Under the pieces are notes generated by a model. That model did not search any database. It was not told the origin of the DNA and saw only the letters and a list, made by a program, of their open reading frames with translations. From a virus (taxonomy: Duplodnaviria > Caudoviricetes), in the IMG/VR virus record IMGVR_UViG_3300030118_003585, positions 1 through 60,507 of that record: a stretch of 60,507 nucleotides of DNA; one strand, written 5' to 3'. Shown here one piece after another: positions 1 through 16,238 of this stretch; the stretch's first letter is position 1, and the number at the start of each line of letters is the position of its first letter. Made by a program: the position numbers and the translations under genes.

Positions 1-1
1 A

Positions 2-359: not shown

Positions 360-360
360 T

Positions 361-959: not shown

Positions 960-970
960 TTTATTTAATT

Positions 971-5341: not shown

Positions 5342-5343
5342 TG

Positions 5344-5670
5344 TTAAAATGGTAGATCGTCGTCTTGTTTAACTTCATTAGTTTGTCCTGATTTTTTTGA
5401 CCAGTTTGTTGTTACTGGATTATCATTTCTACTAGCAACAAGTTGACCATTATCCCAAACAACTTTTGCATTACCTAAATATGTTTTAGTTTCTTTAGCT
5501 TCTCTTTCATCTTTTGTTTGTGCAACAGTAACAGGACCGTCATTACCAAACTGATCCGGTTCATCGTTTAAAGTTATTGTTATAGGTAAATACTTACCTT
5601 TTTTACCGTCGATAATTTTATCTTTAGGTATTGCAGTTAAATTTATACTTGTGTTTATAATTTGTGCCAT
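5344..5670 (-). CDS. single-stranded DNA-binding protein (putative)
   Basis: Small beta-rich protein with acidic C-terminal DDDLPF tail, between nuclease and helicase; start at MAQIIN. Confidence 0.65.
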   Translation of the reverse strand: MAQIINTSINLTAIPKDKIIDGKKGKYLPITITLNDEPDQFGNDGPVTVAQTKDEREAKETKTYLGNAKVVWDNGQLVASRNDNPVTTNWSKKSGQTNEVKQDDDLPF

Positions 5671-5680
5671 ATTATTTAAT

Positions 5681-6412
5681 TTATAATGTTTGTGTTTCAA
5701 AATACTGATCTGCCTCAAAACCTTTTGTCTTGTAAAACAAATCATAAATTTCAGTTGCTTTTACAACTTTATCTTCTCCAGACATATAAAATTCTGAACT
5801 GCACTCAAAGAGTACTATTTTACCTGTTGGTTTATCTATTGCTATAAATAACATATCATAACCAAAAAGCTTCATGTATATATATGCTTGTGAGTCGTAA
5901 TTATATCGTTTAGCGCTATACCTAAAATTAGATATATCATTTGTAGTCTTCAGATCAATTACTAATTTTTCATCGTGATTTATTATATCAGCTTTACCTT
6001 TCCAATAATTATCGTAAAGCATTGCTAAACCAGGTGCTTCGTGTTCTACTAAACCTTTGTTAATCAAGTGATTACAAGTTTCATTGTTTAATAGTTTTTC
6101 TGATAGTTTTTCTATGTGGTCAACTTCATGTTGTAATAAACAAAGTTCGCCACCAGACATTTCTTTATATAACTTCGTGTTCCTAGTTGCTGAAGGTATT
6201 ACTAGGTATTTTTTAAGCTTATCTGGCTCTAAAATAGCTGTGTGAAAATATCCACCAACTAAGAACGCCGAAGTCTTTTGTTGTTCTTCGTGTAATGCCG
6301 CTGGGTTTGTAAATAAAGTTTTTATATTACTATTACTTAAAAACTTCTGACCAAACTTGCCATAATAGTTTTTATCATCTTTAAGCTTTTCTAATGCTTG
6401 TTTGATGTTCAT
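5681..6412 (-). CDS. PD-(D/E)XK exonuclease (RecE/exonuclease VIII-like)
   Basis: LSNS, G-x-x-FHTAILEP, KGKAD, IDLKTT, YDSQAYIY motifs. Confidence 0.85.
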   Translation of the reverse strand: MNIKQALEKLKDDKNYYGKFGQKFLSNSNIKTLFTNPAALHEEQQKTSAFLVGGYFHTAILEPDKLKKYLVIPSATRNTKLYKEMSGGELCLLQHEVDHIEKLSEKLLNNETCNHLINKGLVEHEAPGLAMLYDNYWKGKADIINHDEKLVIDLKTTNDISNFRYSAKRYNYDSQAYIYMKLFGYDMLFIAIDKPTGKIVLFECSSEFYMSGEDKVVKATEIYDLFYKTKGFEADQYFETQTL

Positions 6413-6837
6413 TACAACTCTTGTGTATTAATTTTTTTAAACCTAGATGTATCTACAAAGTCTTCTGATTCATCTTGTCCAAATACACCAAGCGCGTAAA
6501 AACCTGTTAGCTTTAAAACTATACGTGACATTGCACGTTTTTCAGCCATAGCTAAAACATAACTTTGTCTACAGTTTTGTTCATTTGTTTCACCGTATGT
6601 TTGTATGTTACGATTATTCCACGATGCAGTAGCTTTTACAGCTGCAGATTTACCTGGATTATATTCTTGTAAATCATACTCAATATCTATATCAGCTAAA
6701 GCTTGTATTTTATCAATACCAGATCTCCTTATAATAGTCCAACCTTGTGGACTTTTAAACGTGTCTTCAGCTACTAAACCATATTTTTTATATAAGCTGT
6801 TTAGCATTTCAGAACGTTTTTGACTAGTTTTTTCCAT
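6412..6837 (-). CDS. putative ssDNA-annealing/recombination protein
   Basis: Coupled to the exonuclease; AMAEKRA-x-SR helix resembles Rad52/Sak-type annealases. Confidence 0.45.
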   Translation of the reverse strand: MEKTSQKRSEMLNSLYKKYGLVAEDTFKSPQGWTIIRRSGIDKIQALADIDIEYDLQEYNPGKSAAVKATASWNNRNIQTYGETNEQNCRQSYVLAMAEKRAMSRIVLKLTGFYALGVFGQDESEDFVDTSRFKKINTQEL

Positions 6838-6850
6838 AATTTAATTTTAA

Positions 6851-6883
6851 TATATTATATTGTTTACTTTGTATTATATCTGT
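6851..6883 (-). promoter_or_regulatory. phage promoter motif copy (ACAGA-N4-ATACAAAGTAA-N4-TATAATATA) upstream of the replication operon
   Basis: One of 11 equally spaced copies, each upstream of a minus-strand start codon. Confidence 0.8.
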
Positions 6884-7614
6884 TAATTAATAAAGTCAAT
6901 TATAAAATCACTATCAACAGTGTTTATTAATTTTTCAATAGCTTCTTTTTTAATTTGTGATACTCTTACAAAATCAGAACTACCAACTATATTTAGCAAC
7001 CCAGCTATTTTTTTAGCAGGTAGTTTATCACAGTCAAGACCAAAGCTCATACGCACGACATCATATTCTTTATCATTTAAATGTGTTTTCATTAAAGATA
7101 AAATGTATTTGTTAAGTATATTAATATTATACTCTTTTGATTTATCTTCGACATCTTTTGTCTCATCTATGTTTTTAAAAACAGAATTAAAAAACATTTG
7201 TACCATTTTACGATCTTCACCACTTTGTTTACGCAACTCATTTAATTTATGTTCTGGTATACGTATACCCCCTCTGTTTGTATCAACTGCTCTTCTCACT
7301 GCTCCGTTTATTCTTTTTTTTATAAAACCCTTAATCTGTCTTTCATATTCGTCTTGAGAGTTCATTACTGTCCAGTCAAGCCGATCCAAAGCTAATATTA
7401 AACCTATATTTGCTTCTTGCATTATATCCATTATGTTCATAATACCTGATGCTTTATCAGAAACTGAAAAGCTGCGCGCAATTGTCTCTGCAAAAGGTAT
7501 TAATGTTATTATTAGTTCTTTTCTAGTGTAGTCTTTCCAAGCTTTTTTTTTAGGCAAACAATTTTTTAAATCACGTTTGTATTTGATATAGTTTGCTAAA
7601 TTGTAGCTTTTCAT
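6883..7614 (-). CDS. RNA polymerase sigma-70 family factor
   Basis: Region 2 DIMQEANIGLI...KRINGAVRRAVD...IRIPEH; region 4 HTH KEYDVVRMSFGL...VRVSQIKKEAIEKL. Confidence 0.88.
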   Translation of the reverse strand: MKSYNLANYIKYKRDLKNCLPKKKAWKDYTRKELIITLIPFAETIARSFSVSDKASGIMNIMDIMQEANIGLILALDRLDWTVMNSQDEYERQIKGFIKKRINGAVRRAVDTNRGGIRIPEHKLNELRKQSGEDRKMVQMFFNSVFKNIDETKDVEDKSKEYNINILNKYILSLMKTHLNDKEYDVVRMSFGLDCDKLPAKKIAGLLNIVGSSDFVRVSQIKKEAIEKLINTVDSDFIIDFIN

Positions 7615-8233
7615 TTAGTGTTGTTTTTTCATTTTTAAGGCTTTTTTCCATATTTCTATATATTGTTCTTGTTGATACTTTTAAATATTCAGCAAGTTTT
7701 TTTATGGTAATTTTATCGCCATTATCATGAATATACAACATTATTTCATAAATATCACTATTGCTAACACTGTTTTTCCTACCTATTAAGCTACCGCTTA
7801 TTTTTAATTTTTCTATAACACTTAATCCAGTACCTTGTTTAAATATTATTTTTCTTAACCTATTTTTAGGTGCTTTATCAAATGTTTCAACTAAAACTTC
7901 TTTGATAATATTATCTATAATTTCTTCTTTAAATGTTATAGTTACAAAACCATTTTTTACGTTGGTAATGTATTTTATAATTTTTTTATACATGTCATCA
8001 TCGAGATCAAAATATGGATTATCCATGTTTAAATAATAAATAGTAAACATGTGCCATTTTAAAGATTTATAACTTGTAATCATACTTTTTGAGTGAAACA
8101 AATTATAAAACTGGTATGTTCCTTGCTCAAAAAACCAACCCCACCAATAAACTTCTGTAGGTTTATCGCTTATAGGTTCTTGTCTAGTTATAACTTTTAA
8201 ATTGTTTAAATATTCTAATCTGTTATGTGACAT
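7571..8233 (-). CDS. C-terminal HTH DNA-binding protein (possible replication initiator or regulator)
   Basis: ITIKKLAEYLKVSTRTIYRNM helix-turn-helix. Confidence 0.7.
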   Translation of the reverse strand: MSHNRLEYLNNLKVITRQEPISDKPTEVYWWGWFFEQGTYQFYNLFHSKSMITSYKSLKWHMFTIYYLNMDNPYFDLDDDMYKKIIKYITNVKNGFVTITFKEEIIDNIIKEVLVETFDKAPKNRLRKIIFKQGTGLSVIEKLKISGSLIGRKNSVSNSDIYEIMLYIHDNGDKITIKKLAEYLKVSTRTIYRNMEKSLKNEKTTLNEKLQFSKLYQIQT

Positions 8234-8269
8234 AAGCTTTTATACTCTACCTATTGTCATACTTTATAT

Positions 8270-8327
8270 AAAAAAAGATCCCCCTCGAACTATGGATATA
8301 AATAAGAAGGTCGTCGAGGAGGATCTT
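8270..8327 (-). terminator. intrinsic terminator-like hairpin with an unusually large loop
   Basis: AAGATCC..CCTCGA / TCGAGG..GGATCTT arms followed by a U-run on the minus strand. Confidence 0.6.
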
Positions 8328-8348
8328 AATAAACAACTAACTAAATTA

Positions 8349-8615
8349 TTAACCCTTCTTACTAATATCGTTTGATAATCTTTTTAATCTTTCTTGCACT
8401 CTATCTATTTTAGTTTTTATTAATGCAGCTTTTTCATATTGTTCAGATGACTCATACAAATTTAATAATGTGTGAAGTCTTGCCATCTCACCTAATAATT
8501 CTTCTTCTAAAGCTTCTACAACAAATTCTTCTTTTTGTTTTTGTAAAAGTTTTTTAACTATATATTCTGCTAGCTTGTCTAGCTGATCATCAGTAATATT
8601 AATGTTTTCGGACAT
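8349..8615 (-). CDS. small protein with UvrB/UvrC-like coiled motif
   Basis: EQYEKAALIKTKI motif. Confidence 0.6.
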   Translation of the reverse strand: MSENINITDDQLDKLAEYIVKKLLQKQKEEFVVEALEEELLGEMARLHTLLNLYESSEQYEKAALIKTKIDRVQERLKRLSNDISKKG

Positions 8616-8662
8616 TAGTGTTTGCTATACACACTAATATACTATATTTTTTTCTTATTTCA

Positions 8663-9127
8663 CTAATTATACAGATCAGGTGTTTCAACACAATACATAG
8701 CTACATCTTCCCACTTACCATATTTAACATCATTATTAACTAATAAGTCAATACTATTTTTATATCTTTTATTCATAACGTCTTGTACTTTCCAATAACC
8801 ATTGTACTTACCAACACCCGTTATGTAAACTATACTACCAAAAGGATAATCATCAAGTAAATCTCTAGATACAGCTAACCACCGATGCTCATATGGTTTA
8901 TCTTTTGTTATTTTAGCGCCTGACGCAGTAATCAATGGTGTATCATCTGTTTGCATTGGCACCGCGTTGTATACTGTTGCTGTTAATAAATAATTGTTTT
9001 TAAAACAATATCTAACTTCGATAGGCGGATAATTACACATATCAGAACACCAATCAGGAATAAATTGTTGTGCTTTATTAAAATAGCTAACAAGCATTAT
9101 TATTAGCGATATAATCATTTTATTCAT
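8663..9127 (-). CDS. secreted 3D-domain (MltA-like) cell-wall enzyme
   Basis: Signal peptide; TATVY...ITASG...LAVSRDL...PFGSIV...VQDVM...IDLL. Confidence 0.8.
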   Translation of the reverse strand: MNKMIISLIIMLVSYFNKAQQFIPDWCSDMCNYPPIEVRYCFKNNYLLTATVYNAVPMQTDDTPLITASGAKITKDKPYEHRWLAVSRDLLDDYPFGSIVYITGVGKYNGYWKVQDVMNKRYKNSIDLLVNNDVKYGKWEDVAMYCVETPDLYN

Positions 9128-9306
9128 TTTATTAAATTTAAGTTTAACTCTTTAGCTACATAGTTAATATGTTTTTGAGTTGTAACACTCCAATAACCAT
9201 GCTGTATTAAATTAGGATAATCTATTGTTGCAACATGAGTACTATAAGAATATATATCATTATTAACTCTTGTTAAGTTTTGTTTATATCTATTAAATTT
9301 TTCCAT
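9124..9306 (-). CDS. hypothetical protein
   Basis: 60-aa coupled ORF (SYSTHVA...WSVTTQKHINY). Confidence 0.7.
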   Translation of the reverse strand: MEKFNRYKQNLTRVNNDIYSYSTHVATIDYPNLIQHGYWSVTTQKHINYVAKELNLNLIK

Positions 9307-9308
9307 AA

Positions 9309-9536
9309 TTAATCAAGTGTGTTTAATTCATGCTCTACGATTCCACGCGTTACTTTAATAAATTCAAGCGCTACGTCGTTTAAATACTTATCTCGTAACG
9401 GTGAGTTTTTATATTCTTCTTTTATTGCGTAAACGCTTTGCTCATAAGTTATAAGCTCCTGATCTAATTTTGCTAGCAGCGGCGGAACCTCTGCTTTATT
9501 ATAAATTGGAATATGTTTTTTATTATAATTTTTCAT
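9309..9536 (-). CDS. hypothetical protein
   Basis: ORF in a packed operon. Confidence 0.6.
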   Translation of the reverse strand: MKNYNKKHIPIYNKAEVPPLLAKLDQELITYEQSVYAIKEEYKNSPLRDKYLNDVALEFIKVTRGIVEHELNTLD

Positions 9537-9745
9537 GTTTTTGTTTCCATTAAAAAAAGTAAATATTCATATATTATTATTCTTTCATGCCACCATTTTT
9601 TAGCTTGGTTGTTTTGCGCTTTAGTTAAAAACATAGTGTCTTTATAGTTTTTTAATGTAAGCTCAGCTTTAGTTTTTCTTGCCATTAAAAAATCAAACGC
9701 TTTACTGTGTGTCGACTCTTTCTTCATTTTTTTTCTCATTTTCAA
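9533..9745 (-). CDS. hypothetical protein
   Basis: ORF in a packed operon. Confidence 0.55.
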   Translation of the reverse strand: MKMRKKMKKESTHSKAFDFLMARKTKAELTLKNYKDTMFLTKAQNNQAKKWWHERIIIYEYLLFLMETKT

Positions 9746-10094
9746 TTTTACATATATCTAAAAAAGCTTGTTCGTATAATTCAGCTAAATTTGAATCTGA
9801 TCTCTCATCAAGCTCATCATCAAAATATATATAACCACCCATCATATTTTCTATAACTTCTATTATGTCGTCATACCATGAGTCTTCATAGTAACAAACA
9901 TTATCACAAACAGAAAACTCATGTGTTGAAGTTTTTGAAATATAAACTTCATAACCATCTCTTGTTGATTCTCTATAATATAAATGTGTAGCTGCGTACC
10001 AATCATTAGTAATTTCTATATTCCAATAATCTAAAACAGCTTTTTCTAGACTTTGAAAGTCCATTTTAACTAATTGTTTTTCAGTATATTTCAT
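9702..10094 (-). CDS. acidic hypothetical early protein
   Basis: 130-aa ORF directly downstream of a promoter motif. Confidence 0.7.
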   Translation of the reverse strand: MKYTEKQLVKMDFQSLEKAVLDYWNIEITNDWYAATHLYYRESTRDGYEVYISKTSTHEFSVCDNVCYYEDSWYDDIIEVIENMMGGYIYFDDELDERSDSNLAELYEQAFLDICKIENEKKNEERVDTQ

Positions 10095-10107
10095 ATTGTT
10101 AATTTTA

Positions 10108-10140
10108 TATATTATATAAGTTACTTTGTATTAAGACTGT
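10108..10140 (-). promoter_or_regulatory. phage promoter motif copy
   Basis: ACAGTCTTAATACAAAGTAACTTATATAATATA on the minus strand. Confidence 0.8.
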
Positions 10141-10244
10141 AAACTGTTTACTACCCATATTAATACCATGCATATTACAAACAACTTAAAAGTTAAATTA
10201 AGTAGTTTAAATATTTCTTCTTCGTCTTTGTTTCTTCTATTCAT
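10131..10244 (-). CDS. small membrane peptide (37 aa)
   Basis: MNRRNKDEEEIFKLLNLTFKLFVICMVLIWVVNSLQS; hydrophobic C-terminal half. Confidence 0.45.
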   Translation of the reverse strand: MNRRNKDEEEIFKLLNLTFKLFVICMVLIWVVNSLQS

Positions 10245-10246
10245 AA

Positions 10247-10328
10247 TAAAAAAAATAAAGTGTGACAAAAATTACCCGAACACCTCGTGTGCTCTACCAA
10301 GTAATGAAAACCCATGCCACACTTTATT
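10247..10328 (-). terminator. long hairpin with U-tract (terminator or sRNA)
   Basis: 14-bp stem AAUAAAGUGUGGCA/UGUCACACUUUAUU (one G-U), inner stems, U-run, right after a stop codon. Confidence 0.6.
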
Positions 10329-10329
10329 A

Positions 10330-10698
10330 TTACAGTACAAATTCTTTAAAAACAGCTTTTTTACTTTTTGCCATTAAACCGTCTTCAAAAGCTATGGTTA
10401 GTTTTTTACCACCTACGTTCCAGATGTTTGCTATGTTTCTACTATATGACTTATCTCTTTTCCAATCATATATTGTAAACACATTATCGCCTTGTTTTAA
10501 TACCCACTCATAATTTACTTTCTGATCCATTGACTGTCCTAAAATAGGTTCGCCAAACATTTTAACTAGATCATTATAAGTGACATTACACACATAACCT
10601 AATTTAAACGTTCCTGTTGTTATTTTAAACGCCTCTTCTTTTGTCTGTACTTGTTTAAGTTTTTTTAAACCTTTAATTACATTATTAATTCTATTCAT
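10330..10698 (-). CDS. hypothetical phage protein
   Basis: 122-aa ORF (FG-P...KV-x-x-EW...FTIYDWK...WNVGG), immediately 3' of the twister ribozyme. Confidence 0.75.
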   Translation of the reverse strand: MNRINNVIKGLKKLKQVQTKEEAFKITTGTFKLGYVCNVTYNDLVKMFGEPILGQSMDQKVNYEWVLKQGDNVFTIYDWKRDKSYSRNIANIWNVGGKKLTIAFEDGLMAKSKKAVFKEFVL

Positions 10699-10709
10699 AA
10701 CTTATATTT

Positions 10710-10763
10710 GTGCTCACTCTGTATTTACACGGGCTTGTGACCGTCCTTGGCTACATTAAGCAC
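10710..10763 (-). ncRNA. twister ribozyme (type P1)
   Basis: GUGCU UAA UGUA GC CAAGG ACGG U CAC AA GC CCGU GUAAA UACA GA GUG AGCAC: P1, L1 UAA, P2, P4 and both pseudoknots (CAC/GUG, GC/GC) present in canonical order; predicted cut U^A between 10758 and 10757. Confidence 0.93.
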
Positions 10764-11126
10764 GAGTTAGACAATGTATAGACATTGTAAGGTCTAGCTA
10801 ATCGGTTATCCCGCTTAATCTCGATAGCTTGCTGTAGTGTTCAACCACTATTCTCAAGTATTACTACTCATTGAATAATCATATCTGATTACAACAGTCT
10901 GGCTAACCTCAATAGCGTGAGGTGTTCCTTACCATCAGCCAGCTTCATACCTATCATAGAACAATCTATATCGTTCGTAGTAATAGACCTTAATCACTCT
11001 CAGTATATCTCTGATTATCATACTTATATTTATAAGCACGTCGTCTAGATGACTGAGCAACCCCCTACCCCTTGTTCTCGCAAGGCTTGTTGGGTACTAA
11101 CTCTTCGGTAGGTTTGCAACCCTACC
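10764..11126 (-). ncRNA. large structured non-coding RNA, family not recognised
   Basis: No ORF of 60 aa or more, GC-enriched, four long-range helices and about 8 local hairpins; the closing helix ends at the twister. Confidence 0.75.
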
Positions 11127-11140
11127 TACGCATATATAAA

Positions 11141-11218
11141 AGTTGCGGCTGCCAGCCAAAAAATAAATATGAAAAATTCTCTACAGTATAAATCGCACGT
11201 AGAACAGCAGCCACAACT
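11141..11218 (-). ncRNA. hairpin RNA/terminator displaying an anti-start-codon segment
   Basis: 12-bp stem AGUUGUGGCUGC/GCAGCCGCAACU, inner UUCUAC/GUAGAG stem, unpaired UUUUUCAUAUUUAUUUUUU. Confidence 0.55.
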
Positions 11219-11221
11219 ATA

Positions 11222-11518
11222 TTACTTTTTAACTTTATCTAATAATTTTTTTCTCATTTTATCTAGTTCTCTCCAACTATAAAACAGATCATCACCCCAA
11301 TGCATATTCCATGGTGTTATGTTAAGTGCATCACACTTACCTAATATTTTTTCTCTTAACAACCTTGTTTCGCTTATTGTTAACTCCCAATAATTAGCTT
11401 TTGCAAGAGCTTCTTTTATTTCGTTTTTTTCATACTCAAAAGTTTTTTTAGATGCCAAAGCTTTTTCTAGCTTTTTAATTAAACCTTTTCTGAGTTTTTG
11501 TTCTAAATTTTCAAACAT
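11222..11518 (-). CDS. hypothetical protein
   Basis: 98-aa ORF under promoter 11527-11559, co-transcribed with the RNA island. Confidence 0.7.
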   Translation of the reverse strand: MFENLEQKLRKGLIKKLEKALASKKTFEYEKNEIKEALAKANYWELTISETRLLREKILGKCDALNITPWNMHWGDDLFYSWRELDKMRKKLLDKVKK

Positions 11519-11526
11519 ATTTTTAT

Positions 11527-11559
11527 TTTATTATATTATTCACCTTGTATTAAGTCTGT
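11527..11559 (-). promoter_or_regulatory. phage promoter motif copy
   Basis: ACAGACTTAATACAAGGTGAATAATATAATAAA. Confidence 0.7.
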
Positions 11560-11645
11560 AATATCGCAGTGCTCATAACAGCACGAACATATTGGTGATG
11601 TGTATAGCACTTGTGCATTACAGCAGTCACTTAATTGTATATTAC

Positions 11646-11807
11646 TCATTTCCAATTTTTACAACATCTATCACTAATCCAATAATCACCGTACGGATCA
11701 GCTACATTATACTCTGATAACAAACGTCTAGCTTCGTTAATTGTTTCAGCTTCATCTAACGTTTCGTTACCAGTAGTGTTATTAAACTTATAATTTATAT
11801 AAAACAT
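11646..11807 (-). CDS. small hypothetical protein (53 aa)
   Basis: Likely start MFYINYK; the longer ORF call runs into the tRNA-like element. Confidence 0.65.
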   Translation of the reverse strand: MFYINYKFNNTTGNETLDEAETINEARRLLSEYNVADPYGDYWISDRCCKNWK

Positions 11808-11821
11808 TTCTTTATAATTTG

Positions 11822-11895
11822 AGGACGTGGCAGGAGTCGAACCTGCGTCTGGCACCTTTGCTTACGCCGAGGTTGCCGCCAACCATTTCACGCCC
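11822..11895 (-). ncRNA. tmRNA-like tRNA-like domain (mini-tmRNA, no mRNA domain)
   Basis: Acceptor GGGCGUG/CACGUCC with G3:U70, stemless D loop AAAUGGUUGGC, P2-like GGCA(A)CCU/AGGUGCC, GAC linker, T arm GCAGG-UUCGACU-CCUGC. Confidence 0.75.
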
Positions 11896-11900
11896 ATAAA

Positions 11901-11945
11901 GGAGGTAGCGGTACGCCGCGCGTTACTGTTACTGCCACTACCTCC
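11901..11945 (-). ncRNA. GC-rich 11-bp hairpin with 23-nt loop
   Basis: GGAGGUAGUGG/CCGCUACCUCC. Confidence 0.5.
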
Positions 11946-11946
11946 G

Positions 11947-12129
11947 TCGTTAAGTTAGTGTGGTAGGCGCCCGTTTACACTTGCTGGGTTTACGCCAGTA
12001 CATGTACGCTGCCTCGACTTATAACCTCCTATTTCTTAACGATTTCGTTAAGTTAGTGTGATCATTGCGCCCTGTTACCACTACTTTAATAAGTGCAGCT
12101 CGACTTACAGATCTCCTATTTCTTAACGA
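11947..12129 (-). repeat. two tandem structured RNA units (11947-12042, 12045-12129)
   Basis: Shared UCGUUAAGAAAUAGGAG...UAAGUCGAG...GGGCGC...CACACUAACUUAACGA with variable interior and self-complementary ends. Confidence 0.8.
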
Positions 12130-12386
12130 TGACTATAATAATATTCTTCAGAAGCTATGTCTACTATTTCTCGTTCTATGTTATCAAGGGTGTCTTGATT
12201 CATATAGCTTAATAACTCCGCGTATTCATTCCTATGCACTCCATTAATTCTAACTGCCTCATACTCAACATCATAGGCGCTCGGTGTATCACGATCACCT
12301 TCTGAATAAAAATACTTATAGTCTATTTCTAAATCAATATTACCTATAGTATACTCTAATGTTCCTTGAACGTGTTTGCCTACCAT
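12123..12386 (-). CDS. acidic hypothetical early protein
   Basis: 87-aa ORF whose stop lies inside the first repeat arm. Confidence 0.6.
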   Translation of the reverse strand: MVGKHVQGTLEYTIGNIDLEIDYKYFYSEGDRDTPSAYDVEYEAVRINGVHRNEYAELLSYMNQDTLDNIEREIVDIASEEYYYSHR

Positions 12387-12595
12387 TTATCTATCCTTTT
12401 AAGTAAATTATCATAGGTTATATCCTCTAATAAACTAAACTCTTCTTGCGTTAATTTATCTGACCAAGCGCTATAACTTAAATCATTGTTTATAGTTTTG
12501 TATATATACTCAGCTATATTACTTTCAAGCTCATCTAAGAACATCTTGTACTCTTTTGAGTTTGTAATTTGGTCATCTTCAATTATTTTGTTCAT
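12380..12595 (-). CDS. hypothetical early protein
   Basis: ORF downstream of promoter 12609-12641. Confidence 0.65.
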   Translation of the reverse strand: MNKIIEDDQITNSKEYKMFLDELESNIAEYIYKTINNDLSYSAWSDKLTQEEFSLLEDITYDNLLKRIDKW

Positions 12596-12608
12596 TTTTT
12601 AATTTATT

Positions 12609-12641
12609 ATTATTATACTCTTTACTTTGTAATCTATCTGT
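12609..12641 (-). promoter_or_regulatory. phage promoter motif copy
   Basis: Matches the 33-bp consensus. Confidence 0.7.
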
Positions 12642-12705
12642 ATTACTAAGTAATCTACGTATTTCTCTATTACGTTTTATTGCGTGTAGCATTTGTCTTT
12701 CTTTC

Positions 12706-12948
12706 CTATGCCTCATCTTCATATTCTTCTCGTTCAAGCTCATCTGCGTGTTCTTGCCATCTATCTAATGCTTCTTCTATTTCTCTTTCCATACACACAA
12801 TACTTTTAGCGTGCATCAAAAGATCTCGTAACGCATCAGCTTCATAATCAGACATGTCAACACTCATTTCACCGTTTTCAATTGCATGTACACAATCTTC
12901 TAAATCGTCCGCTGTATTTTCAAAGCGGCAGTAACTCATATTACCCAT
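12706..12948 (-). CDS. very acidic hypothetical protein
   Basis: MGNMSYCRFENT...; D/E-rich. Confidence 0.7.
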   Translation of the reverse strand: MGNMSYCRFENTADDLEDCVHAIENGEMSVDMSDYEADALRDLLMHAKSIVCMEREIEEALDRWQEHADELEREEYEDEA

Positions 12949-12964
12949 AGTTTTAATTATTTAA

Positions 12965-13159
12965 TTATTTACGCCTCCAAGATTTATGAACTAATTCAGA
13001 TAGCTCTTGGCTAACTATTTGAATTGTATTACCCGTCTTGTGTTCAATGATAGGTACATAGCTATACGTTTTGACTGTTGAACAGCGAACACACGTTCTG
13101 TAACCATAGTTTAATCTGGCTTGCGGTATTGTTACACCGCATCTACAATATTTATTCAT
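12965..13159 (-). CDS. TraR/DksA-like C4 zinc-finger protein
   Basis: CRCGVTIPQARLNYGYRTCVRC resembles CxxCGxxIPxxRL...CxxC. Confidence 0.6.
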   Translation of the reverse strand: MNKYCRCGVTIPQARLNYGYRTCVRCSTVKTYSYVPIIEHKTGNTIQIVSQELSELVHKSWRRK

Positions 13160-13162
13160 ATA

Positions 13163-13195
13163 TATATTATATACTTAACTTTGTATTGAATTTGT
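13163..13195 (-). promoter_or_regulatory. phage promoter motif copy
   Basis: Matches the 33-bp consensus. Confidence 0.7.
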
Positions 13196-13274
13196 AATTT
13201 TATATGCGCGTTACTATGTATAGCATTACGCTATATAAATAACAAGCTAATATGTATATTATTACATTTTCCAT

Positions 13275-13418
13275 TTAATCTAGTTTAAATTTAGAAGCGA
13301 CATCTCTTATTTCTTGTCTATCATAACTGTCAAGTCCTGGTTTTTGAGCCGCGTACTGTCGGAGTACATAGTGTACAAATAAGCAATCGCTTTTAGTTAG
13401 TTTTACTGAGTGTTCCAT
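13275..13418 (-). CDS. small hypothetical protein (47 aa)
   Basis: Manual translation MEHSVKLTKSDCLFVHYVLRQYAAQKPGLD...; fills an operon gap. Confidence 0.55.
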   Translation of the reverse strand: MEHSVKLTKSDCLFVHYVLRQYAAQKPGLDSYDRQEIRDVASKFKLD

Positions 13419-13420
13419 GC

Positions 13421-13675
13421 TTAATCGTATTTGAATACATTTTTTTCACTTGTAACCATCCACTCACAATTACTTATTGAGTGATCTAAAAACGTTAAAA
13501 ATTCTTCAACGCTTTCATTATCTGGGCTCCAGCCGCTATATCTATAAACTCTACCTTCTGTAAAATCAAGAACAAAAACATATGTTTTCTTTGGTTTGAC
13601 AGGTCTAGGTATAGGCGGTGGTAGTTGAGCTAATTCATGTAGCTCTTTTGCTTCTTTACTTACTTTGTTTTTCAT
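13421..13675 (-). CDS. hypothetical protein
   Basis: ORF coupled to the upstream gene. Confidence 0.65.
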   Translation of the reverse strand: MKNKVSKEAKELHELAQLPPPIPRPVKPKKTYVFVLDFTEGRVYRYSGWSPDNESVEEFLTFLDHSISNCEWMVTSEKNVFKYD

Positions 13676-13926
13676 AACTCGAATAATCTTAATGTTGATT
13701 CACCTAACAGTCTATCATAATGATTTAGCTTGTCTGCGTGCTCACACATAAACTCGTCTAATGAAGCTAAACTTAGTGATATATTATACCTGTTACACAT
13801 TGCTGTCATGTAGTCTCTTGCAACTTCATGATATATGTCTTCAGCTTTTAATAAAGCATCTTCAAACCTTTTAGAATAATGTGACAAAGGTTTTATGTAT
13901 AGTCTTTTAGTATCTGTATTTTCCAT
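13672..13926 (-). CDS. hypothetical protein
   Basis: Downstream of promoter 13945-13977; likely start MENTD. Confidence 0.6.
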   Translation of the reverse strand: MENTDTKRLYIKPLSHYSKRFEDALLKAEDIYHEVARDYMTAMCNRYNISLSLASLDEFMCEHADKLNHYDRLLGESTLRLFEL

Positions 13927-13944
13927 ATTATTTAATTTCATATA

Positions 13945-13977
13945 TATATTATATTCATTACTTTGTATTTGTTTTGT
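13945..13977 (-). promoter_or_regulatory. phage promoter motif copy
   Basis: Matches the 33-bp consensus. Confidence 0.7.
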
Positions 13978-13983
13978 AACACT

Positions 13984-14214
13984 TTATTGTGCCCATGGGT
14001 GATTATCATTAAAATCTTTTTCTTGCACTTGCTCACACAGATCAGTAAACAAGTCTAGTTCAGTCTCGCCATCTTCCAAGTCACACTCATTATGAACAAA
14101 CTCGTAAATGTGTATAGCAACTGCCGCCCAACCATCGGCGTCAAGTCGATCTACAAAGTATTGTAGTGTTTCGTCTCTCCAAACAAATCTTTTATTATTT
14201 TTTTCTTTTTTCAT
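13984..14214 (-). CDS. acidic hypothetical protein
   Basis: ORF in the early operon. Confidence 0.6.
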   Translation of the reverse strand: MKKEKNNKRFVWRDETLQYFVDRLDADGWAAVAIHIYEFVHNECDLEDGETELDLFTDLCEQVQEKDFNDNHPWAQ

Positions 14215-14416
14215 AATATAACTCTTTTAATAAATCTTCTAATCGTTCTACGTTAGTATGTTTTAATCTACTATCAAACCAGTCTTGTTTTACTATATTG
14301 TTTTTTAATGCGTAGTCAAATATTATATTTTCATTATTAATATTTTCTTCTGTACCCCAATAATTAGTATCAGAAAGGTTTTTAATTTCTTTGTTTGTAA
14401 ACTTTATTATATCCAT
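14195..14416 (-). CDS. hypothetical protein
   Basis: ORF in the early operon. Confidence 0.6.
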   Translation of the reverse strand: MDIIKFTNKEIKNLSDTNYWGTEENINNENIIFDYALKNNIVKQDWFDSRLKHTNVERLEDLLKELYYEKRKK

Positions 14417-14421
14417 AGTAT

Positions 14422-14640
14422 TTAACTTAAATATTCTGGAAACCTTTTTAAAGCTTCTTCAAACTCTGATTCATGTATAAATGTAAAACCTTTTAAGTTG
14501 AACCAGTTTTTTATAGGATTATCTACACTGTTATTATTAAATCTTCTTGGCAACTTGTGTATTTGAAAGCCGAAGAATTTATTGTGTTTGAATTTAATGT
14601 AGGGTATTTGCTTGTATGTAGTATATTTAATTTTAGTCAT
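14422..14640 (-). CDS. hypothetical protein
   Basis: ORF downstream of promoter 14660-14692. Confidence 0.65.
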   Translation of the reverse strand: MTKIKYTTYKQIPYIKFKHNKFFGFQIHKLPRRFNNNSVDNPIKNWFNLKGFTFIHESEFEEALKRFPEYLS

Positions 14641-14659
14641 AATTTAATTTTTAGATATT

Positions 14660-14692
14660 AATATTATATATTTTACTTTGTATTTAATTTGT
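14660..14692 (-). promoter_or_regulatory. phage promoter motif copy
   Basis: Matches the 33-bp consensus. Confidence 0.7.
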
Positions 14693-14894
14693 TTAAGTGA
14701 TTATATCTTTTAATTAACATTGGTTCTATAATTTCCATCATAGAAGAAGTTGATGTTATACCAGATTCAAATAGAGTTTTTATAGTAAATTGTATAAAAG
14801 GATCCACACCACCATCTTTATCACATGGTGCATACTCAAAAAAGGTATATGTAAATTCATCAGTTAGTTTATCTTGAAATTCAGTATAATTCAT
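14673..14894 (-). CDS. hypothetical protein
   Basis: Likely start MNYTEF, downstream of promoter 14914-14946. Confidence 0.6.
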   Translation of the reverse strand: MNYTEFQDKLTDEFTYTFFEYAPCDKDGGVDPFIQFTIKTLFESGITSTSSMMEIIEPMLIKRYNHLNKLNTK

Positions 14895-14913
14895 AGTATT
14901 ATTTTTAATTATA

Positions 14914-14946
14914 TATATTATATACATCACTTCGTAATATAACTGT
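14914..14946 (-). promoter_or_regulatory. phage promoter motif copy
   Basis: Matches the consensus with TACGAAGTGA in the middle element. Confidence 0.65.
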
Positions 14947-15030
14947 AAAAGGGTATTACTTGTTTAGTATATGATTTGAGGTAGAGGGGTTTTATACATT
15001 ACCTCTAATTGTGTAAAGTTTAAAAAAAAC

Positions 15031-15075
15031 TGTGACATTAGGTATAGATATAGGATAGTAGAGGCTAGTGTCACA
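15031..15075. promoter_or_regulatory. spaced inverted repeat TGTGACA...TGTCACA (operator or origin element)
   Basis: TGTGACATTAG / CTAGTGTCACA in a non-coding gap; similar pair at 8226-8261. Confidence 0.5.
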
Positions 15076-15164
15076 CTTACTTTGCGTTACTTTACCTTAC
15101 TTTACCTCGCTTTGCTATACATGCTATACACACTCTGCATAAAACAGAGTGCATATCACTATAA

Positions 15165-15401
15165 TTACTTACTTACTGCAAAGTCTCTAGCAAAAGTAGG
15201 GACATTATTAGTAGCAGTGTATGATTTATATTTAATGAAGCAGGGCATTGAATCAAGTTTTGCTTTATTTGCTTTATATACTTCATCATGATTATAAGTA
15301 TACACTTTACCACTTTTGTTTGTAAAGTTGATAGTAATTCCTTTGCCAATTAAGTTTTTTCTTATGACAAATCTTTTAGTATTTAATGTATTATTTTTCA
15401 T
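15165..15401 (-). CDS. early protein, paralog of 15924-16172
   Basis: Shared TKRFVIRKNLIGK...TYNHD...YKSYTATNNVPTFAR; likely start MKNNTL. Confidence 0.75.
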   Translation of the reverse strand: MKNNTLNTKRFVIRKNLIGKGITINFTNKSGKVYTYNHDEVYKANKAKLDSMPCFIKYKSYTATNNVPTFARDFAVSK

Positions 15402-15419
15402 ATTTATAAAATTTATGTA

Positions 15420-15452
15420 GATATTATAGTTAGTAACTTGTATTGTATCTGT
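15420..15452 (-). promoter_or_regulatory. phage promoter motif copy
   Basis: Matches the 33-bp consensus. Confidence 0.7.
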
Positions 15453-15527
15453 TTTCTTCACTTCGCTTACAGAAGTGCTATACATGCTATACACAGCGCC
15501 TCACGGCGCTATGCTTGTTAAATTATA

Positions 15528-15788
15528 TTAAGATATTAAACCACCTTCACGCTCGATGATGTAATCAACTGATTCACCAATGCTTGGCTCATACTCAAAT
15601 TGTTTTGTAGTTTGCTTGTTAAAGTCAAATACAAATAATTTATCACTACCAACTTTTACCTCAGAAGTAAACGATAATACTTCTAATTGAGGTGAAGTGT
15701 TTGGGGTAAATACTATTGTAGTATTATTTAATTTAATATAATTTATATTAAAGTAATTTAAGTGGTTTGTAAGATTATTTATAGTCAT
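15528..15788 (-). CDS. hypothetical early protein
   Basis: ORF with its own promoter and downstream hairpin. Confidence 0.65.
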   Translation of the reverse strand: MTINNLTNHLNYFNINYIKLNNTTIVFTPNTSPQLEVLSFTSEVKVGSDKLFVFDFNKQTTKQFEYEPSIGESVDYIIEREGGLIS

Positions 15789-15809
15789 ATTTATTAATTT
15801 AAAGTTATG

Positions 15810-15842
15810 TATATTATATAAAGTAACTTGTATTTATTCTGT
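15810..15842 (-). promoter_or_regulatory. phage promoter motif copy
   Basis: Matches the 33-bp consensus. Confidence 0.7.
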
Positions 15843-15923
15843 TCACTCTACCGTTTTGCTATACATGCTATACACAGCAGGCCTTTCGACCCGCTGCGCT
15901 TCGCTCGCTAAGCAATGAGCTAC

Positions 15924-16172: not shown

Positions 16173-16206
16173 ATTTATATTATTTAATTAATTTAAAATT
16201 TATATA

Positions 16207-16238
16207 TATATTATATAAAATACTTGTATTATTTCTGT
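16207..16238 (-). promoter_or_regulatory. phage promoter motif copy (first of the early arm)
   Basis: Matches the consensus, 1 bp shorter. Confidence 0.65.

What the first reader, a model, noticed from the sequence alone, without database searches (positions are those of the whole stretch)
10710..10763. Twister ribozyme splitting an early transcript between a large ncRNA and a gene
All twister elements are present in canonical order and spacing. Known: twister cleaves at U^A, leaving a 2',3'-cyclic phosphate and a 5'-OH. Here the cut (10758/10757) would define the 3' end of the upstream structured RNA 6 nt past its closing helix. It would also give the downstream mRNA (ATG at 10698) a structured 5'-OH end. 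This implies a dedicated RNA-maturation role.
Basis: partly seen in the sequence, partly recalled or inferred. Interest (0 to 1): 0.8.

Follow-up and report, generated by a model that had tools for sequence, protein, structure and literature searches.

The report
Twister ribozyme trimming a phage RNA
A marine phage carries a genuine self-cutting "twister" RNA fused to the end of a previously uncatalogued, about 370-base folded RNA, and probably uses it to cut that RNA free, which would give this orphan ribozyme class a concrete natural job.

Summary
On the minus strand, 10763-10710 is a minimal (P3-less) type-P1 twister. Rfam RF03160 scores it 56.2 bits, E 6e-10 over the whole window. That is below the 67.2-bit cut-off only because the optional P3 stem is absent. 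All strongly conserved consensus positions aligned by the model match, apart from a compensated T1 pair. The predicted cut is U10758|A10757.

Directly upstream lies a roughly 370-nt non-coding RNA (about 11131/11124 to 10758). It matches no Rfam 15 family. It occurs in 43 distinct marine phage and metagenome sequences. Covariation is strong: 98.9% of cells paired against 33-43% for slid controls. Every homologue with enough sequence ends in a twister, 53 of 53. The flanking genes differ, and so do the phage lineages (terminase 23-83% identical).

Metatranscriptome contigs from four studies cover only this RNA. One 365-nt contig runs 11124-10760, 2 nt short of the predicted cut.

Best reading: the twister makes the 3' end of a stable phage RNA, leaving a 6-nt tail. 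The RNA's function and the origin of its 5' end are unknown, and cleavage was not assayed.

Earlier notes of this scan describe twisters bounding other large phage RNAs on other DNA. None describes this RNA family.

The parts
10710..10763 (-). Minimal type-P1 twister ribozyme lacking P0, P3 and P5. Helices: P1 10763-10759/10714-10710; P2 10755-10752/10723-10720; P4 10743-10741/10732-10730; pseudoknot T1 10739-10737/10717-10715; pseudoknot T2 10751-10750/10734-10733.
   Evidence: RF03160 at 56.2 bits, E 6.1e-10 over the window. Coordinates. P1, P2 and P4 covary across 41 homologues. The T1 middle pair is kept in 65 of 66 unique phage twisters.
10757..10758 (-). Predicted scissile bond U10758 | A10757. 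The upstream product would end in U with a 2',3'-cyclic phosphate. The downstream product would begin with 5'-OH A.
   Evidence: These bases align to model positions U5-A6 of RF03160. The U-A cleavage site of twisters is described in PMC6154101 (passages read). A 365-nt RNA-library contig ends at 10760. Cleavage was not assayed.
10758..11131 (-). Roughly 367-374-nt structured non-coding RNA of an uncatalogued family. The 5' end is approximate (11131-11116 by RNA contigs). The 3' end is the twister cut.
   Evidence: Homologues were found. A 41-sequence alignment (A4) has 82 pairs, 44 with changes on both sides, and 98.9% of cells paired. No Rfam family matches. No open frame exists under code 11 or single stop reassignments. 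RNA contigs of four studies cover only this stretch.
11107..11126 (-). 5' hairpin of the ncRNA. Its 8-nt loop (11120-11113) displays the 6-nt palindrome UUGCAA (11119-11114), a candidate kissing-loop self-association site.
   Evidence: The stem covaries (helix 1; 5 pairs). The loop is present in 5 of 5 homologues found without using it as a search anchor (window, L085, L049, L155, L158). In the other homologues its presence follows from the search pattern. Dimerisation is inference only.
11097..11103 (-). 5' strand (GAGUUAG) of the long-range closing helix of the ncRNA.
   Evidence: It pairs with 10770-10764. Of 7 pairs, 2 have double changes and 2 have one-sided changes across 41 sequences, with 99.7% paired (helix 2).
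10764..10770 (-). 3' strand (CUAACUC) of the closing helix. It abuts twister P1 (G10763) with no spacer.
   Evidence: and 73/74. The two columns are contiguous in all 41 aligned sequences.
10330..10698 (-). Downstream 122-aa ORF of unknown function. Its ATG lies 11 nt after the twister's last paired base, and no Shine-Dalgarno sequence is evident.
   Evidence: ORF list. No PHROG or Pfam match. No relative found in viral contigs.
11222..11518 (-). Upstream 98-aa ORF of unknown function. It is probably on the same primary transcript.
   Evidence: ORF list. No PHROG or Pfam match. The nearest copy of the window's repeated early-promoter motif lies just upstream, at about 11527-11570.
11141..11218 (-). 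Long imperfect hairpin between the upstream ORF and the ncRNA, followed by CUUUUAUAUAU. It is terminator-like and is not conserved in the other ncRNA loci.
   Evidence: MFE fold. Terminator-like site at 11158-11146. It is absent from the RNA contigs.

Best explanation
The early minus-strand transcript of this marine phage (probable Flavobacteriia host) carries three elements in a row: a roughly 370-nt highly structured non-coding RNA, a minimal type-P1 twister ribozyme, and the next gene. As the twister is transcribed it folds into P1-P2-P4 with pseudoknots T1 and T2. It then cuts its own backbone between U10758 and A10757.

Because a type-P1 twister cuts near its own 5' edge, almost the whole ribozyme stays on the downstream fragment. 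The 5-bp P1 melts, and the upstream RNA is released with only a 6-nt tail (GUGCUU) beyond its closing helix and a 2',3'-cyclic phosphate end. That RNA accumulates as a discrete, stable species, while the flanking mRNA parts decay.

Status of each step:
- Shown here: the ribozyme motif and its covariation; the conserved structured RNA; their invariable linkage; RNA-library cover restricted to the ncRNA.
- Inferred: cleavage itself; the nature of the end groups; that the cyclic phosphate and terminal helix protect the RNA from 3' exonucleases.
- Unknown: what the RNA does, and how its 5' end is made. In several relatives the upstream ORF's stop codon lies at the conserved 5' edge of the RNA. Processing or decay up to the structure is therefore more likely than a dedicated promoter.
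For: Twister identity.
- RF03160 gives 56.2 bits, E 6.1e-10 over the window, as a full-length match. All strongly conserved consensus letters that the model aligns match, except the middle of T1 (the third letter of the consensus GCC lies at the edge of the P3 deletion and was not aligned). There C>A is compensated by G>U.
- The T1 middle pair is A:U 54, U:A 5, C:G 4, U:G 1 and G:C 1 in 65 of 66 unique phage twisters of this subtype. One had no recognisable partner motif.
- Within the family, P1 has 2 pairs with double changes, P2 has 3 of 4, and P4 has 1 of 3. None is broken beyond 1 cell.
- P3 is optional, present in 78% of annotated twisters. The solved rice twister lacks it (PMC6154101, passages).

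The ncRNA.
- Alignment A4 holds 41 distinct sequences. Of 82 pairs, 44 have changes on both sides.
- 98.9% of cells are paired, against 85.1% in column shuffles (0 of 500 shuffles reach the observed value) and 33-43% when partners are slid.
- No Rfam family matches besides twister, in the window or in 12 of 12 homologous loci.
- No open frame exists.

Linkage.
- 53 of 53 loci with enough downstream sequence carry the twister core at +377 to +434. Six further contigs end too early.
- Two sequence variants of the twister occur. The variant form was found only next to this RNA: 8 of 8 testable loci out of 11 found.
- Neighbouring ORFs fall into 13 downstream clusters (of 33) and 11 upstream clusters (of 30).
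- Carrier phages have terminases 83% or only 23-24% identical to the window's.

RNA evidence.
- All 6 RNA runs listed hold about 19% of the sampled words of 10300-11600, whereas the best DNA runs hold 0.97-1.00.
- Four RNA runs from four studies were laid, and their contigs lie within 10740-11131 only. They include a complete 365-nt contig at 10760-11124 with no loose end.

General pattern. For 62 unique phage twisters of this subtype, the 40 nt upstream fold to a mean of -9.46 kcal/mol, against -5.93 for 310 control 40-mers (Mann-Whitney p 1e-8). In 34 of 62 a hairpin ends within 3 nt of P1.
Against: - No cleavage assay exists.
- The score is under Rfam's curated cut-off, so the default scan reports nothing.
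- The RNA data are assembled contigs. They cannot show true ends, strand or level, and they may break at strain differences.
- Three of the four runs do not reach the cut: their contigs stop at 10809 or 10810, or resume only at 10928. One contig (X20) runs 18 nt past the cut, to 10740, so some uncleaved RNA or DNA is present.
- The contigs differ from the window by 1-7 letters, so they come from related strains.
- The ncRNA homologues were collected with patterns taken from the ncRNA itself. The family as sampled is therefore shallow, with 75% mean column identity.
- Part of the '53 of 53' count is the same sequence held in two collections. There are 43 distinct modules.
- T1 and most of T2 are invariant within the family, so they are uninformative there.
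- Two complete relatives in the GenBank phage set (one an isolate, one a metagenome-derived complete genome) have neither element, so no laboratory system is at hand.
Confidence: 0.78

Rival explanations
1. The selected function is on the downstream side. Cleavage would detach the next gene's mRNA from a bulky folded RNA and give it a 5'-OH end capped by the folded ribozyme. It would also free the P1 3' strand, which lies 11 nt before the ATG. The result would be changed stability or translation of the 122-aa gene. On this view the ncRNA is an independent passenger.
For: The start codon follows the twister closely: 8-39 nt in 24 of 33 loci with a callable downstream ORF, and 11 nt in the window. 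Processing of polycistronic mRNAs has been proposed for bacterial twisters and hammerheads (PMC6765202, passages). Ribozymes in 5' UTRs serve translation in some RNA viruses (PMC13725137, abstract and passages).
Against: The downstream gene is not conserved: 13 clusters among 33, the largest holding 16. In 9 of 33 loci the first ORF starts 64-142 nt away. The variant twister was found only together with this ncRNA. The ribozyme-plus-mRNA fragment is not seen in the RNA contigs, whereas the ncRNA is. Short intergenic distances are normal in phages. The two roles are not mutually exclusive.
Confidence: 0.12
2. The large RNA is a sensor domain that gates the ribozyme, working as an allosteric ribozyme or riboswitch in the manner of glmS. 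Its closing helix stacks directly on P1, so the cut, and with it the fate of the downstream gene, would respond to a ligand or protein bound by the RNA.
For: The closing helix and P1 are contiguous with no spacer in all 41 aligned sequences. This would allow mechanical coupling.
Against: A roughly 370-nt aptamer would be without precedent. Downstream genes vary. The RNA accumulates as a free species, which fits a trans-acting product better than a leader. The twister has a complete, self-sufficient core.
Confidence: 0.05
3. The ncRNA plus twister is a selfish mobile cassette. The ribozyme would serve the cassette's own spread, for example processing of an RNA intermediate, rather than the phage.
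For: The same module, about 60-75% identical at the nucleotide level, sits between different genes and in phages whose terminases are only 23-24% identical.
Against: No reverse transcriptase, transposase, homing endonuclease or terminal repeats were seen next to it. Flanking ORFs are small and have no Pfam or PHROG match. There is one copy per genome. No RNA joint suggesting circles was found (table 5). Only one ribozyme is present, so unit-length excision by self-cleavage alone is impossible.
Confidence: 0.03
4. The motif is an inactive relic or a chance look-alike, and the 3' end of the RNA is made by a host nuclease or a terminator.
For: The score is below Rfam's gathering cut-off. There are no biochemical data.
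Against: E is 6e-10 over the window. All conserved nucleotides are kept (one, at the edge of the P3 deletion, was not aligned), and helices vary by compensated changes in 43 distinct modules. Only one member (L116) has a core substitution. No terminator-like site lies at the ncRNA's 3' end.
Confidence: 0.02

Closest known systems
Twister self-cleaving ribozyme, type P1 (Rfam RF03160), in its minimal form as in the rice Osa-1-4 ribozyme (PDB 4OJI, as summarised in PMC6154101)
   Same: Same order and spacing of P1, the UAA cleavage loop, P2, P4 and the L4 loop. Same two pseudoknots and same conserved nucleotides. Predicted cut at U-A.
   Different: It scores under Rfam's cut-off because P3 is missing. 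The T1 middle pair is A:U rather than the consensus C:G. A sister variant in the same RNA family has a 3-nt longer junction between P4 and P2. Here the ribozyme is welded to the closing helix of a large RNA. No published role of this kind was found.
Theta (minimal HDV-like) ribozymes next to phage tRNAs (Kienbeck et al. 2024, PMC10879173; abstract read)
   Same: A small self-cleaving ribozyme in a phage, placed with its cleavage site against the end of a structured RNA, so that RNA catalysis replaces a 3'-end processing enzyme.
   Different: Different ribozyme class (HDV-like, not twister). The partner there is a tRNA, here a roughly 370-nt RNA of unknown function. Those are gut phages, these are marine phages. 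No tRNA was found in the window or in 18 related loci.
GOLLD and ROOL, large 'ornate' phage and prophage RNAs (Rfam; Kretsch et al. 2025, PMC12286853, passages read)
   Same: Phage-encoded, long, densely base-paired with covariation, abundant as RNA, of unknown function, and not tied to one neighbouring gene.
   Different: No covariance-model similarity at E <= 10 in the stretch or E <= 1 in 12 homologous loci. It is about half the size or less. It is not near tRNA islands. It is always followed by a twister, which that paper does not mention. Oligomerisation here is only a guess from a palindromic loop.
Engineered ribozyme-defined RNA ends (HDV or twister placed after a transcript to give an exact 3' end). 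This rests on general knowledge and comes from no call.
   Same: Same logic: a ribozyme that cuts at its own 5' edge leaves the upstream RNA almost scar-free.
   Different: This would be a natural, evolutionarily conserved use.

Membership tests
Twister ribozyme, type P1 (RF03160) | Significant match to the family covariance model over its full length | tested here: met
   56.2 bits, model positions 1-68 of 68. E is 6.1e-10 for the whole window on both strands against 4227 families.
Twister ribozyme, type P1 (RF03160) | Score at or above Rfam's curated gathering cut-off (67.2 bits) | tested here: not met
   56.2 bits here and 41.9-57.5 bits in 15 homologous loci. The deficit comes from the deleted P3 hairpin, shown as gaps. 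P3 is optional, present in 78% of twisters (PMC6154101). This is a curation threshold rather than a structural requirement.
Twister ribozyme, type P1 (RF03160) | Helices P1, P2 and P4 in the canonical order, supported by covariation | tested here: met
   P1 has 5 pairs (2 with double changes), P2 has 4 pairs (3 with double changes), P4 has 3 pairs (1 with double changes). 99.5-100% of cells are paired in 41 sequences.
Twister ribozyme, type P1 (RF03160) | Double pseudoknot T1 and T2 between loop L4 and loops L1 and L2 | tested here: met
   T1 is CAC/GUG and T2 is GC/GC. Both can form in every sequence that has letters at those columns (one T2 pair is gapped in 21 of the 41), but they are invariant or nearly so there. 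Across 66 unique phage twisters the T1 middle pair is a standard pair in 65, of five types.
Twister ribozyme, type P1 (RF03160) | Highly conserved nucleotides, including the U-A cleavage step and the L4 and junction purines | tested here: met
   The alignment shows every upper-case consensus letter that the model aligns matched (UAA, GC, CGGUC-CAAGCCCG, GUAAA, GAG-GA); the third letter of the consensus GCC lies at the edge of the P3 deletion and is not aligned. The only mismatch is the compensated T1 position.
Twister ribozyme, type P1 (RF03160) | Site-specific self-cleavage giving 2',3'-cyclic phosphate and 5'-OH ends | not testable with these tools
   The only indirect hint is a 365-nt RNA-library contig that ends at 10760, 2 nt before the predicted cut.
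GOLLD / ROOL / OLE and other catalogued large RNAs (for the upstream RNA) | Match to the family covariance model | tested here: not met
   No Rfam 15 family other than twister matches at E <= 10 in 10300-11400 (only two miRNA-model noise hits). None matches at E <= 0.1 in the window or at E <= 1 in 12 homologous loci.
tRNA / tmRNA (for the upstream RNA) | Detected by ARAGORN | tested here: not met
   0 genes in the window and 0 genes in 18 related loci.

The most novel reading that the evidence does not exclude
The roughly 370-nt RNA is a new class of trans-acting 'ornate' phage RNA. It has spread horizontally among unrelated marine Flavobacteriia phages and is abundant enough to assemble from ocean metatranscriptomes. 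Its maturation depends obligately on RNA catalysis: the twister supplies a cyclic-phosphate 3' end next to the closing helix. It self-associates through the palindromic UUGCAA loop of its 5' hairpin, as the known large phage RNAs form homo-oligomers. Together with the hairpin-then-twister pattern seen in other phages, this would mean that the long-sought natural job of bacterial and phage twisters is enzyme-free formation of RNA 3' ends.
Probability: 0.3. Interest if true: 0.85.

Novelty: new variant of a known kind. Interest (0 to 1): 0.66.

Why it matters
Twister ribozymes have been known since 2014 and are fast and widespread. Reviews from 2019 and a 2026 paper still call their roles in bacteria and phages elusive (PMC6765202; PMC13725137).

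Here the ribozyme has a definable substrate and product. It is a conserved, uncatalogued, abundant phage RNA whose 3' end coincides with the cut. That makes the role directly testable with a cleavage assay, cyclic-phosphate sequencing and ribozyme-dead mutants.

It also adds a new large structured RNA family from ocean phages to the short list of such RNAs. The module is shared by very different phages, which suggests it matters to infection. The broader pattern, a stable stem immediately before the twister in 34 of 62 other phage twisters, hints that this may be a general way for phages to make protected RNA 3' ends without host enzymes or terminators.

Tried and rejected
Searches that led nowhere:
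- The Rfam gathering-threshold scan of the window found nothing.
- blastn ('distant') of 10300-11600 against 50,697 GenBank phage records found no match.
- A search for relatives of the downstream 122-aa protein in viral contigs found none.
- PHROGs and Pfam gave no match for the ORFs flanking the RNA.
- tRNA and tmRNA scans found none in the window or in 18 related loci.

Ideas considered and dropped for the upstream RNA:
- A coding region under another genetic code. No frame is open across it under code 11 or with TGA, TAG or TAA read through.
- A group I intron, RNase P RNA, tmRNA, 6S, GOLLD, ROOL, IMES or RAGATH motif. No Rfam match was found.
- A guide RNA of a TnpB- or IscB-type nuclease, or a retron RNA. 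No such gene is nearby, and neighbours are small ORFs without family matches.
- A circular RNA. No joints were seen in the RNA contigs and only one ribozyme is present.
- A dedicated promoter for the RNA. The window's repeated early-promoter motif is absent in front of it. In 8 of 30 relatives the upstream ORF's stop codon lies at the RNA's conserved 5' edge. A weak -10-like TATATA remains possible in the window.

Searches for the RNA elsewhere:
- A host-encoded counterpart. The pattern scan of 185,579 species genomes gave one hit, in a Paenibacillus genome. It scores 6 bits with model R1, so it is a chance match. A covariance-model search of Flavobacteriia genomes could not be set up, because a virus record has no 'relatives' and I had no handle in that class.
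- GenBank relatives. The two complete relatives checked, MW202828.1 and NC_055854.1, have neither the RNA (R1) nor a twister.
- Other twister-bearing phage loci. R1 over 87 sources (739 kb) found only the window, L085 and L049.

RNA-library cover. Parts of 10300-11600 without cover are not evidence of absence. The short pieces at 10653-10686, 11231-11269, 11400-11433 and 11540-11600 mostly have loose ends on both sides, and I read them as unrelated sequences.

Papers. Motif lists in the supplements of Weinberg et al. 2017 (PMC5737381, seen only in a search listing) and of other catalogues of candidate viral RNAs could already contain this RNA under another label. Roth et al. 2014 was not read; statements about it are recalled or taken from the reviews cited. 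Searches for a published description of a twister maturing a phage ncRNA found none.
Full report
WHAT THE WINDOW IS. The window is a whole IMG/VR virus record of 60,507 bases, estimated 94% complete, with about 30% G+C. It has a minus-strand block of small early genes (about 1-16,300) and a plus-strand block of structural genes. These include a large terminase, a GroEL-like chaperonin and a primase/helicase, and a 3244-aa ORF ending in a Peptidase_S74 domain. The terminase is 62% identical to that of an uncultured podovirus genome. It is about 45% identical to terminases of Flavobacterium phages; Cellulophaga, Tenacibaculum and Maribacter phages match at under 60% (87 records). The host is therefore probably a marine member of the Flavobacteriia. 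DNA runs that hold the stretch are labelled marine or seawater metagenomes.

THE OBSERVATION.
- The default Rfam scan at gathering thresholds reports nothing in the window.
- With E-value reporting, the only match at E <= 0.1 in the whole window is RF03160, type-P1 twister. It lies at 10762-10711 on the minus strand, covers the full model, and scores 56.2 bits with E 6.1e-10. For the 1.1-kb stretch the E-value is 1.1e-11.
- The family cut-off is 67.2 bits. The printed alignment shows that the shortfall is the deleted P3 hairpin, replaced by a 5-nt connector.
- Every strongly conserved consensus letter that the model aligns is present except the middle of pseudoknot T1. There the consensus C:G is replaced on both sides by A:U.
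- According to a review I read in passages (PMC6154101), P0, P3 and P5 occur in 21%, 78% and 1% of annotated twisters. The solved rice ribozyme is the basic form without them, and the cut is at a U-A step.
- Mapped to the window: P1 is 10763-10759 with 10714-10710; P2 is 10755-10752 with 10723-10720; P4 is 10743-10741 with 10732-10730; T1 is 10739-10737 with 10717-10715; T2 is 10751-10750 with 10734-10733. The scissile bond is U10758|A10757.

IS THIS SUBTYPE A REAL TWISTER?
- A scan of viral contigs with the L4-to-junction core found 86 stretches, giving 66 unique twister contexts.
- In 65 of the 66, the base in the middle of the L4 half of T1 pairs with the base in the middle of the 3' half: A:U 54, U:A 5, C:G 4, U:G 1, G:C 1. 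One had no recognisable 3' motif.
- That is covariation in a pseudoknot, which is hard to obtain by chance.

THE UPSTREAM RNA.
- Between the 98-aa ORF (11518-11222) and the 122-aa ORF (10698-10330) lie 523 non-coding bases.
- They fold well below shuffled controls: -152.8 kcal/mol, z -3.84, with 0 of 100 shuffles as good. The minimum-energy fold already contains the twister helices and a long-range closing helix.
- Among the 86 twister loci, nhmmer found two with homology to the whole stretch (L085, E 2e-113; L049, E 1e-15) and one partial (L082).
- Patterns taken from conserved blocks of the RNA found 11 true homologues among 16 viral hits; the other 5 were judged false by eye. They also found 47 marine metagenome stretches.
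- A scan with the variant twister alone added two more full-length loci (L155, L158).
- Forty-one distinct full-length sequences were aligned (A4, 75% mean column identity).
- RNAalifold predicts 79 pairs, 44 of them with compensatory changes.
- I counted that structure with the two spurious pairs at the cleavage site removed and T1 and T2 added. This gives 82 pairs in 17 helices, with 98.9% of 3317 cells forming standard pairs. Shuffled columns give 85.1% (0 of 500 shuffles reach the observed value). Sliding the partners by 1-3 columns gives 33-43%.
- 44 pairs have changes on both sides, against 5-12 in the slid controls.
- The alignment comes from fairly close relatives and the structure was derived from it, so these figures flatter the structure somewhat. 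The gap to the controls is nonetheless large.
- No frame is open across the region in any of six frames under code 11 or with any one stop codon read through.
- No Rfam family other than twister matches the stretch (E <= 10) or 12 homologous loci (E <= 1).
- ARAGORN finds no tRNA or tmRNA.

I conclude that this is a genuine structured non-coding RNA of a family absent from Rfam 15. Its architecture is as follows:
- a 5' hairpin (11126-11107);
- a 7-bp closing helix (11103-11097 with 10770-10764);
- inside that helix, two multi-branched domains with at least nine further covarying helices;
- in seven members of A4, a roughly 40-nt extra hairpin.

THE LINKAGE.
- Of 59 loci that carry the RNA's 5' pattern, 52 have the strict twister core 377-434 nt downstream.
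- One full-length locus (L116) has the core with a single substitution and still scores 42.3 bits.
- Six contigs end too early to tell.
- So 53 of 53 informative loci have the twister. Counting each sequence once, that is 43 distinct modules.
- Two forms of the twister occur in the family. They differ in P4 (ACGG/CCGU or CUGG/CCAG), in the connector, and in a 3-nt longer junction. P1 and P2 also vary by compensated changes.
- The variant form was found in viral contigs only next to this RNA: 11 loci, of which 8 are testable, and 8 of 8 are positive.
- The closing helix and P1 are adjacent columns in all 41 sequences.
- By contrast the neighbours are not fixed. The first downstream ORF falls into 13 clusters (33 loci, largest cluster 16). 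The upstream ORF falls into 11 clusters (30 loci).
- Carrier phages are not one lineage. The terminase of the window is 83% identical to that of the L085 phage, but only 23-24% identical to those of three other carriers, and not found in a fourth, incomplete one.
- Two complete relatives of the window's phage (MW202828.1, NC_055854.1) have neither the RNA nor a twister.
- Model R1, built on the 5' domain, finds the RNA in only 3 of 87 sources that carry twisters of this subtype. Most such twisters therefore serve other partners.
- The RNA and its twister thus behave as one module that is kept together while everything around it changes.

RNA EVIDENCE.
- A search of public runs found 14 DNA runs holding 0.42-1.00 of the sampled words of 10300-11600. 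It also found six metatranscriptome runs each holding about 0.19.
- I laid four RNA runs from four studies. Their contigs lie only on the non-coding RNA:
  - X15: 10760-11124, a complete 365-nt contig at depth 25 with no loose end.
  - X16: 10809-11116.
  - X18: 10810-11035 and 10938-11131.
  - X20: 10740-10905 and 10928-11123.
- The few other pieces are 34-61-nt partial matches, most with unrelated sequence on both sides.
- The RNA is therefore far more abundant or stable than the coding parts of the same transcript. Its 5' limit is near 11116-11131. In the best-covered run its 3' limit is 2 nt before the predicted cut.
- These are assemblies, not reads. They cannot give true ends or strand, and they differ from the window at 1-7 positions. 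One contig extends 18 nt beyond the cut. The tool itself calls coincident contig ends a weak hint, and I treat them so.

MECHANISM.
- A type-P1 twister cuts five to six nucleotides into its own 5' strand. Nearly the whole ribozyme stays with the downstream fragment, and the upstream RNA keeps only the 5' strand of P1.
- Here that means a 6-nt tail (GUGCUU) beyond the closing helix, ending in a 2',3'-cyclic phosphate by the known chemistry of the class (PMC6154101; PMC8782182 abstract).
- After the cut, five base pairs of P1 are all that hold the pieces together.
- I infer that the terminal helix and the cyclic phosphate shield the RNA from 3' exonucleases and tailing. This would explain why it outlasts its flanks.
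- The 5' end is unexplained. The window's eleven-fold early-promoter motif, whose copies I read out, is absent in front of the RNA. Its nearest copy is upstream of the 98-aa ORF.
- In 8 of 30 relatives the stop codon of the upstream ORF lies at the conserved 5' edge of the RNA. The RNA is therefore most likely cut or trimmed out of a longer transcript.

A WIDER PATTERN. For 62 unique phage twisters of this subtype, the 40 nt before P1 fold to a mean of -9.46 kcal/mol, against -5.93 for 310 random 40-mers from the same loci (Mann-Whitney p 1e-8). In 34 of 62 a hairpin of -8 kcal/mol or better ends within 3 nt of P1; for comparison, 81 of 310 controls reach -8 kcal/mol. A stable stem followed at once by a twister therefore looks like a general phage device, and the present module is its most elaborate example here.

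WHAT THE RNA MIGHT DO.
- Nothing in the sequence tells. The neighbouring ORFs have no family matches.
- One lead is the loop of the 5' hairpin, which shows the palindrome UUGCAA. It is present in all five homologues found without using it as a search anchor. In the rest its presence follows from my search patterns.
- A palindromic loop could mediate kissing-loop self-association. The known large phage RNAs GOLLD and ROOL form homo-oligomeric cages, and OLE forms a dimer (PMC12286853, passages). This is a hypothesis only.

COMPARISON WITH WHAT IS KNOWN.
- The ribozyme is an ordinary member of the twister class by every structural criterion I could test. Only the curated bit-score threshold is missed, for an understood reason.
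- The closest functional precedent is the theta (HDV-like) ribozymes placed against phage tRNAs (PMC10879173, abstract).
- The closest relatives in kind for the RNA are GOLLD and ROOL, with which it shares no detectable similarity.
- Reviews state that the biological roles of bacterial and phage twisters are unknown, with mRNA processing suggested (PMC6765202; PMC13725137).
- Five full-text searches found no description of a twister maturing a phage non-coding RNA.

EARLIER NOTES OF THIS SCAN.
- On this window, other first-stage notes describe the hairpin at 11141-11218, a repeated early promoter, a tRNA-like element at 11822-11895 and two tandem RNAs at 11947-12129. I checked only the promoter motif, and partly the hairpin.
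- On other genomes, follow-up notes report twisters at the borders of GOLLD, ROOL and unknown large phage RNAs. They agree with the general reading but are unverified by me.
- None concerns this RNA family. The look-up by sequence found no look-alike elsewhere.

VERDICT.
- The twister is a new member of a known class. The RNA it serves is a new family. The conserved pairing of the two is a new variant of how a known ribozyme is used.
- Confidence that the motif is an active twister making the 3' end of the RNA: about 0.78.
- Interest: 0.66.

Noticed in passing
window 6851-16260, minus strand (copies near 6851, 10108, 11527, 12609, 13163, 13945, 14660, 14914, 15420, 15810, 16207): A repeated early-promoter-like motif (TACAG, about 5 nt, AATACAAAGT, about 7 nt, TATAAT) precedes eleven minus-strand genes. 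It was listed by another first-stage note. I read the eleven sites out and they do share the motif. None lies directly before the ncRNA.
   Followed up: partly
window 11141-11218, minus strand: A long imperfect hairpin with a large loop lies between the 98-aa ORF and the ncRNA. It is followed by a U-rich run and is terminator-like by the simple scan. It is not conserved in the other ncRNA loci and is absent from the RNA-library contigs.
   Followed up: partly
window 11520-12130, minus strand: A further gene-poor stretch lies upstream. Other first-stage notes see a tRNA-like (tmRNA-TLD-like) element at 11822-11895 and two tandem roughly 90-nt RNAs at 11947-12129. ARAGORN and Rfam report nothing there, and I did not study it.
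   Followed up: no
L085:7470-7500 (plus strand), just upstream of its ncRNA copy: A T-arm-like sequence (GGTTCGACTCC flanked by complementary bases) precedes the hairpin and ncRNA in the closest relative. ARAGORN calls no tRNA in that locus.
   Followed up: no
L102, L103, L147 and L117, L121, L123, L131 (directly after their twisters): Two groups of loci share conserved, apparently non-coding sequence right after the twister instead of an immediate start codon. This may be further RNA modules downstream of the cut.
   Followed up: no
A4 columns 224-262 (L093, L100, L103, L114, L125, L135, L145): Seven family members carry an extra roughly 40-nt hairpin inserted in the central domain of the ncRNA. 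The insertion has two sequence versions of its tip.
   Followed up: no
window 16703-26437 (+) and 51902-58489 (+): Two giant ORFs of 3244 and 2195 aa. The first ends in a Peptidase_S74 (intramolecular chaperone of tail fibres or spikes) domain. The second has no Pfam match.
   Followed up: no
window 28380-29948 (+): A phage-encoded GroEL-like chaperonin (PHROG 5725, E 1e-131).
   Followed up: no
L038 (two twisters about 1 kb apart, minus strand): One viral contig carries two twisters of the same subtype 1003 nt apart. Each is preceded by the same GC-rich hairpin, so the pair could excise an RNA segment between them.
   Followed up: no
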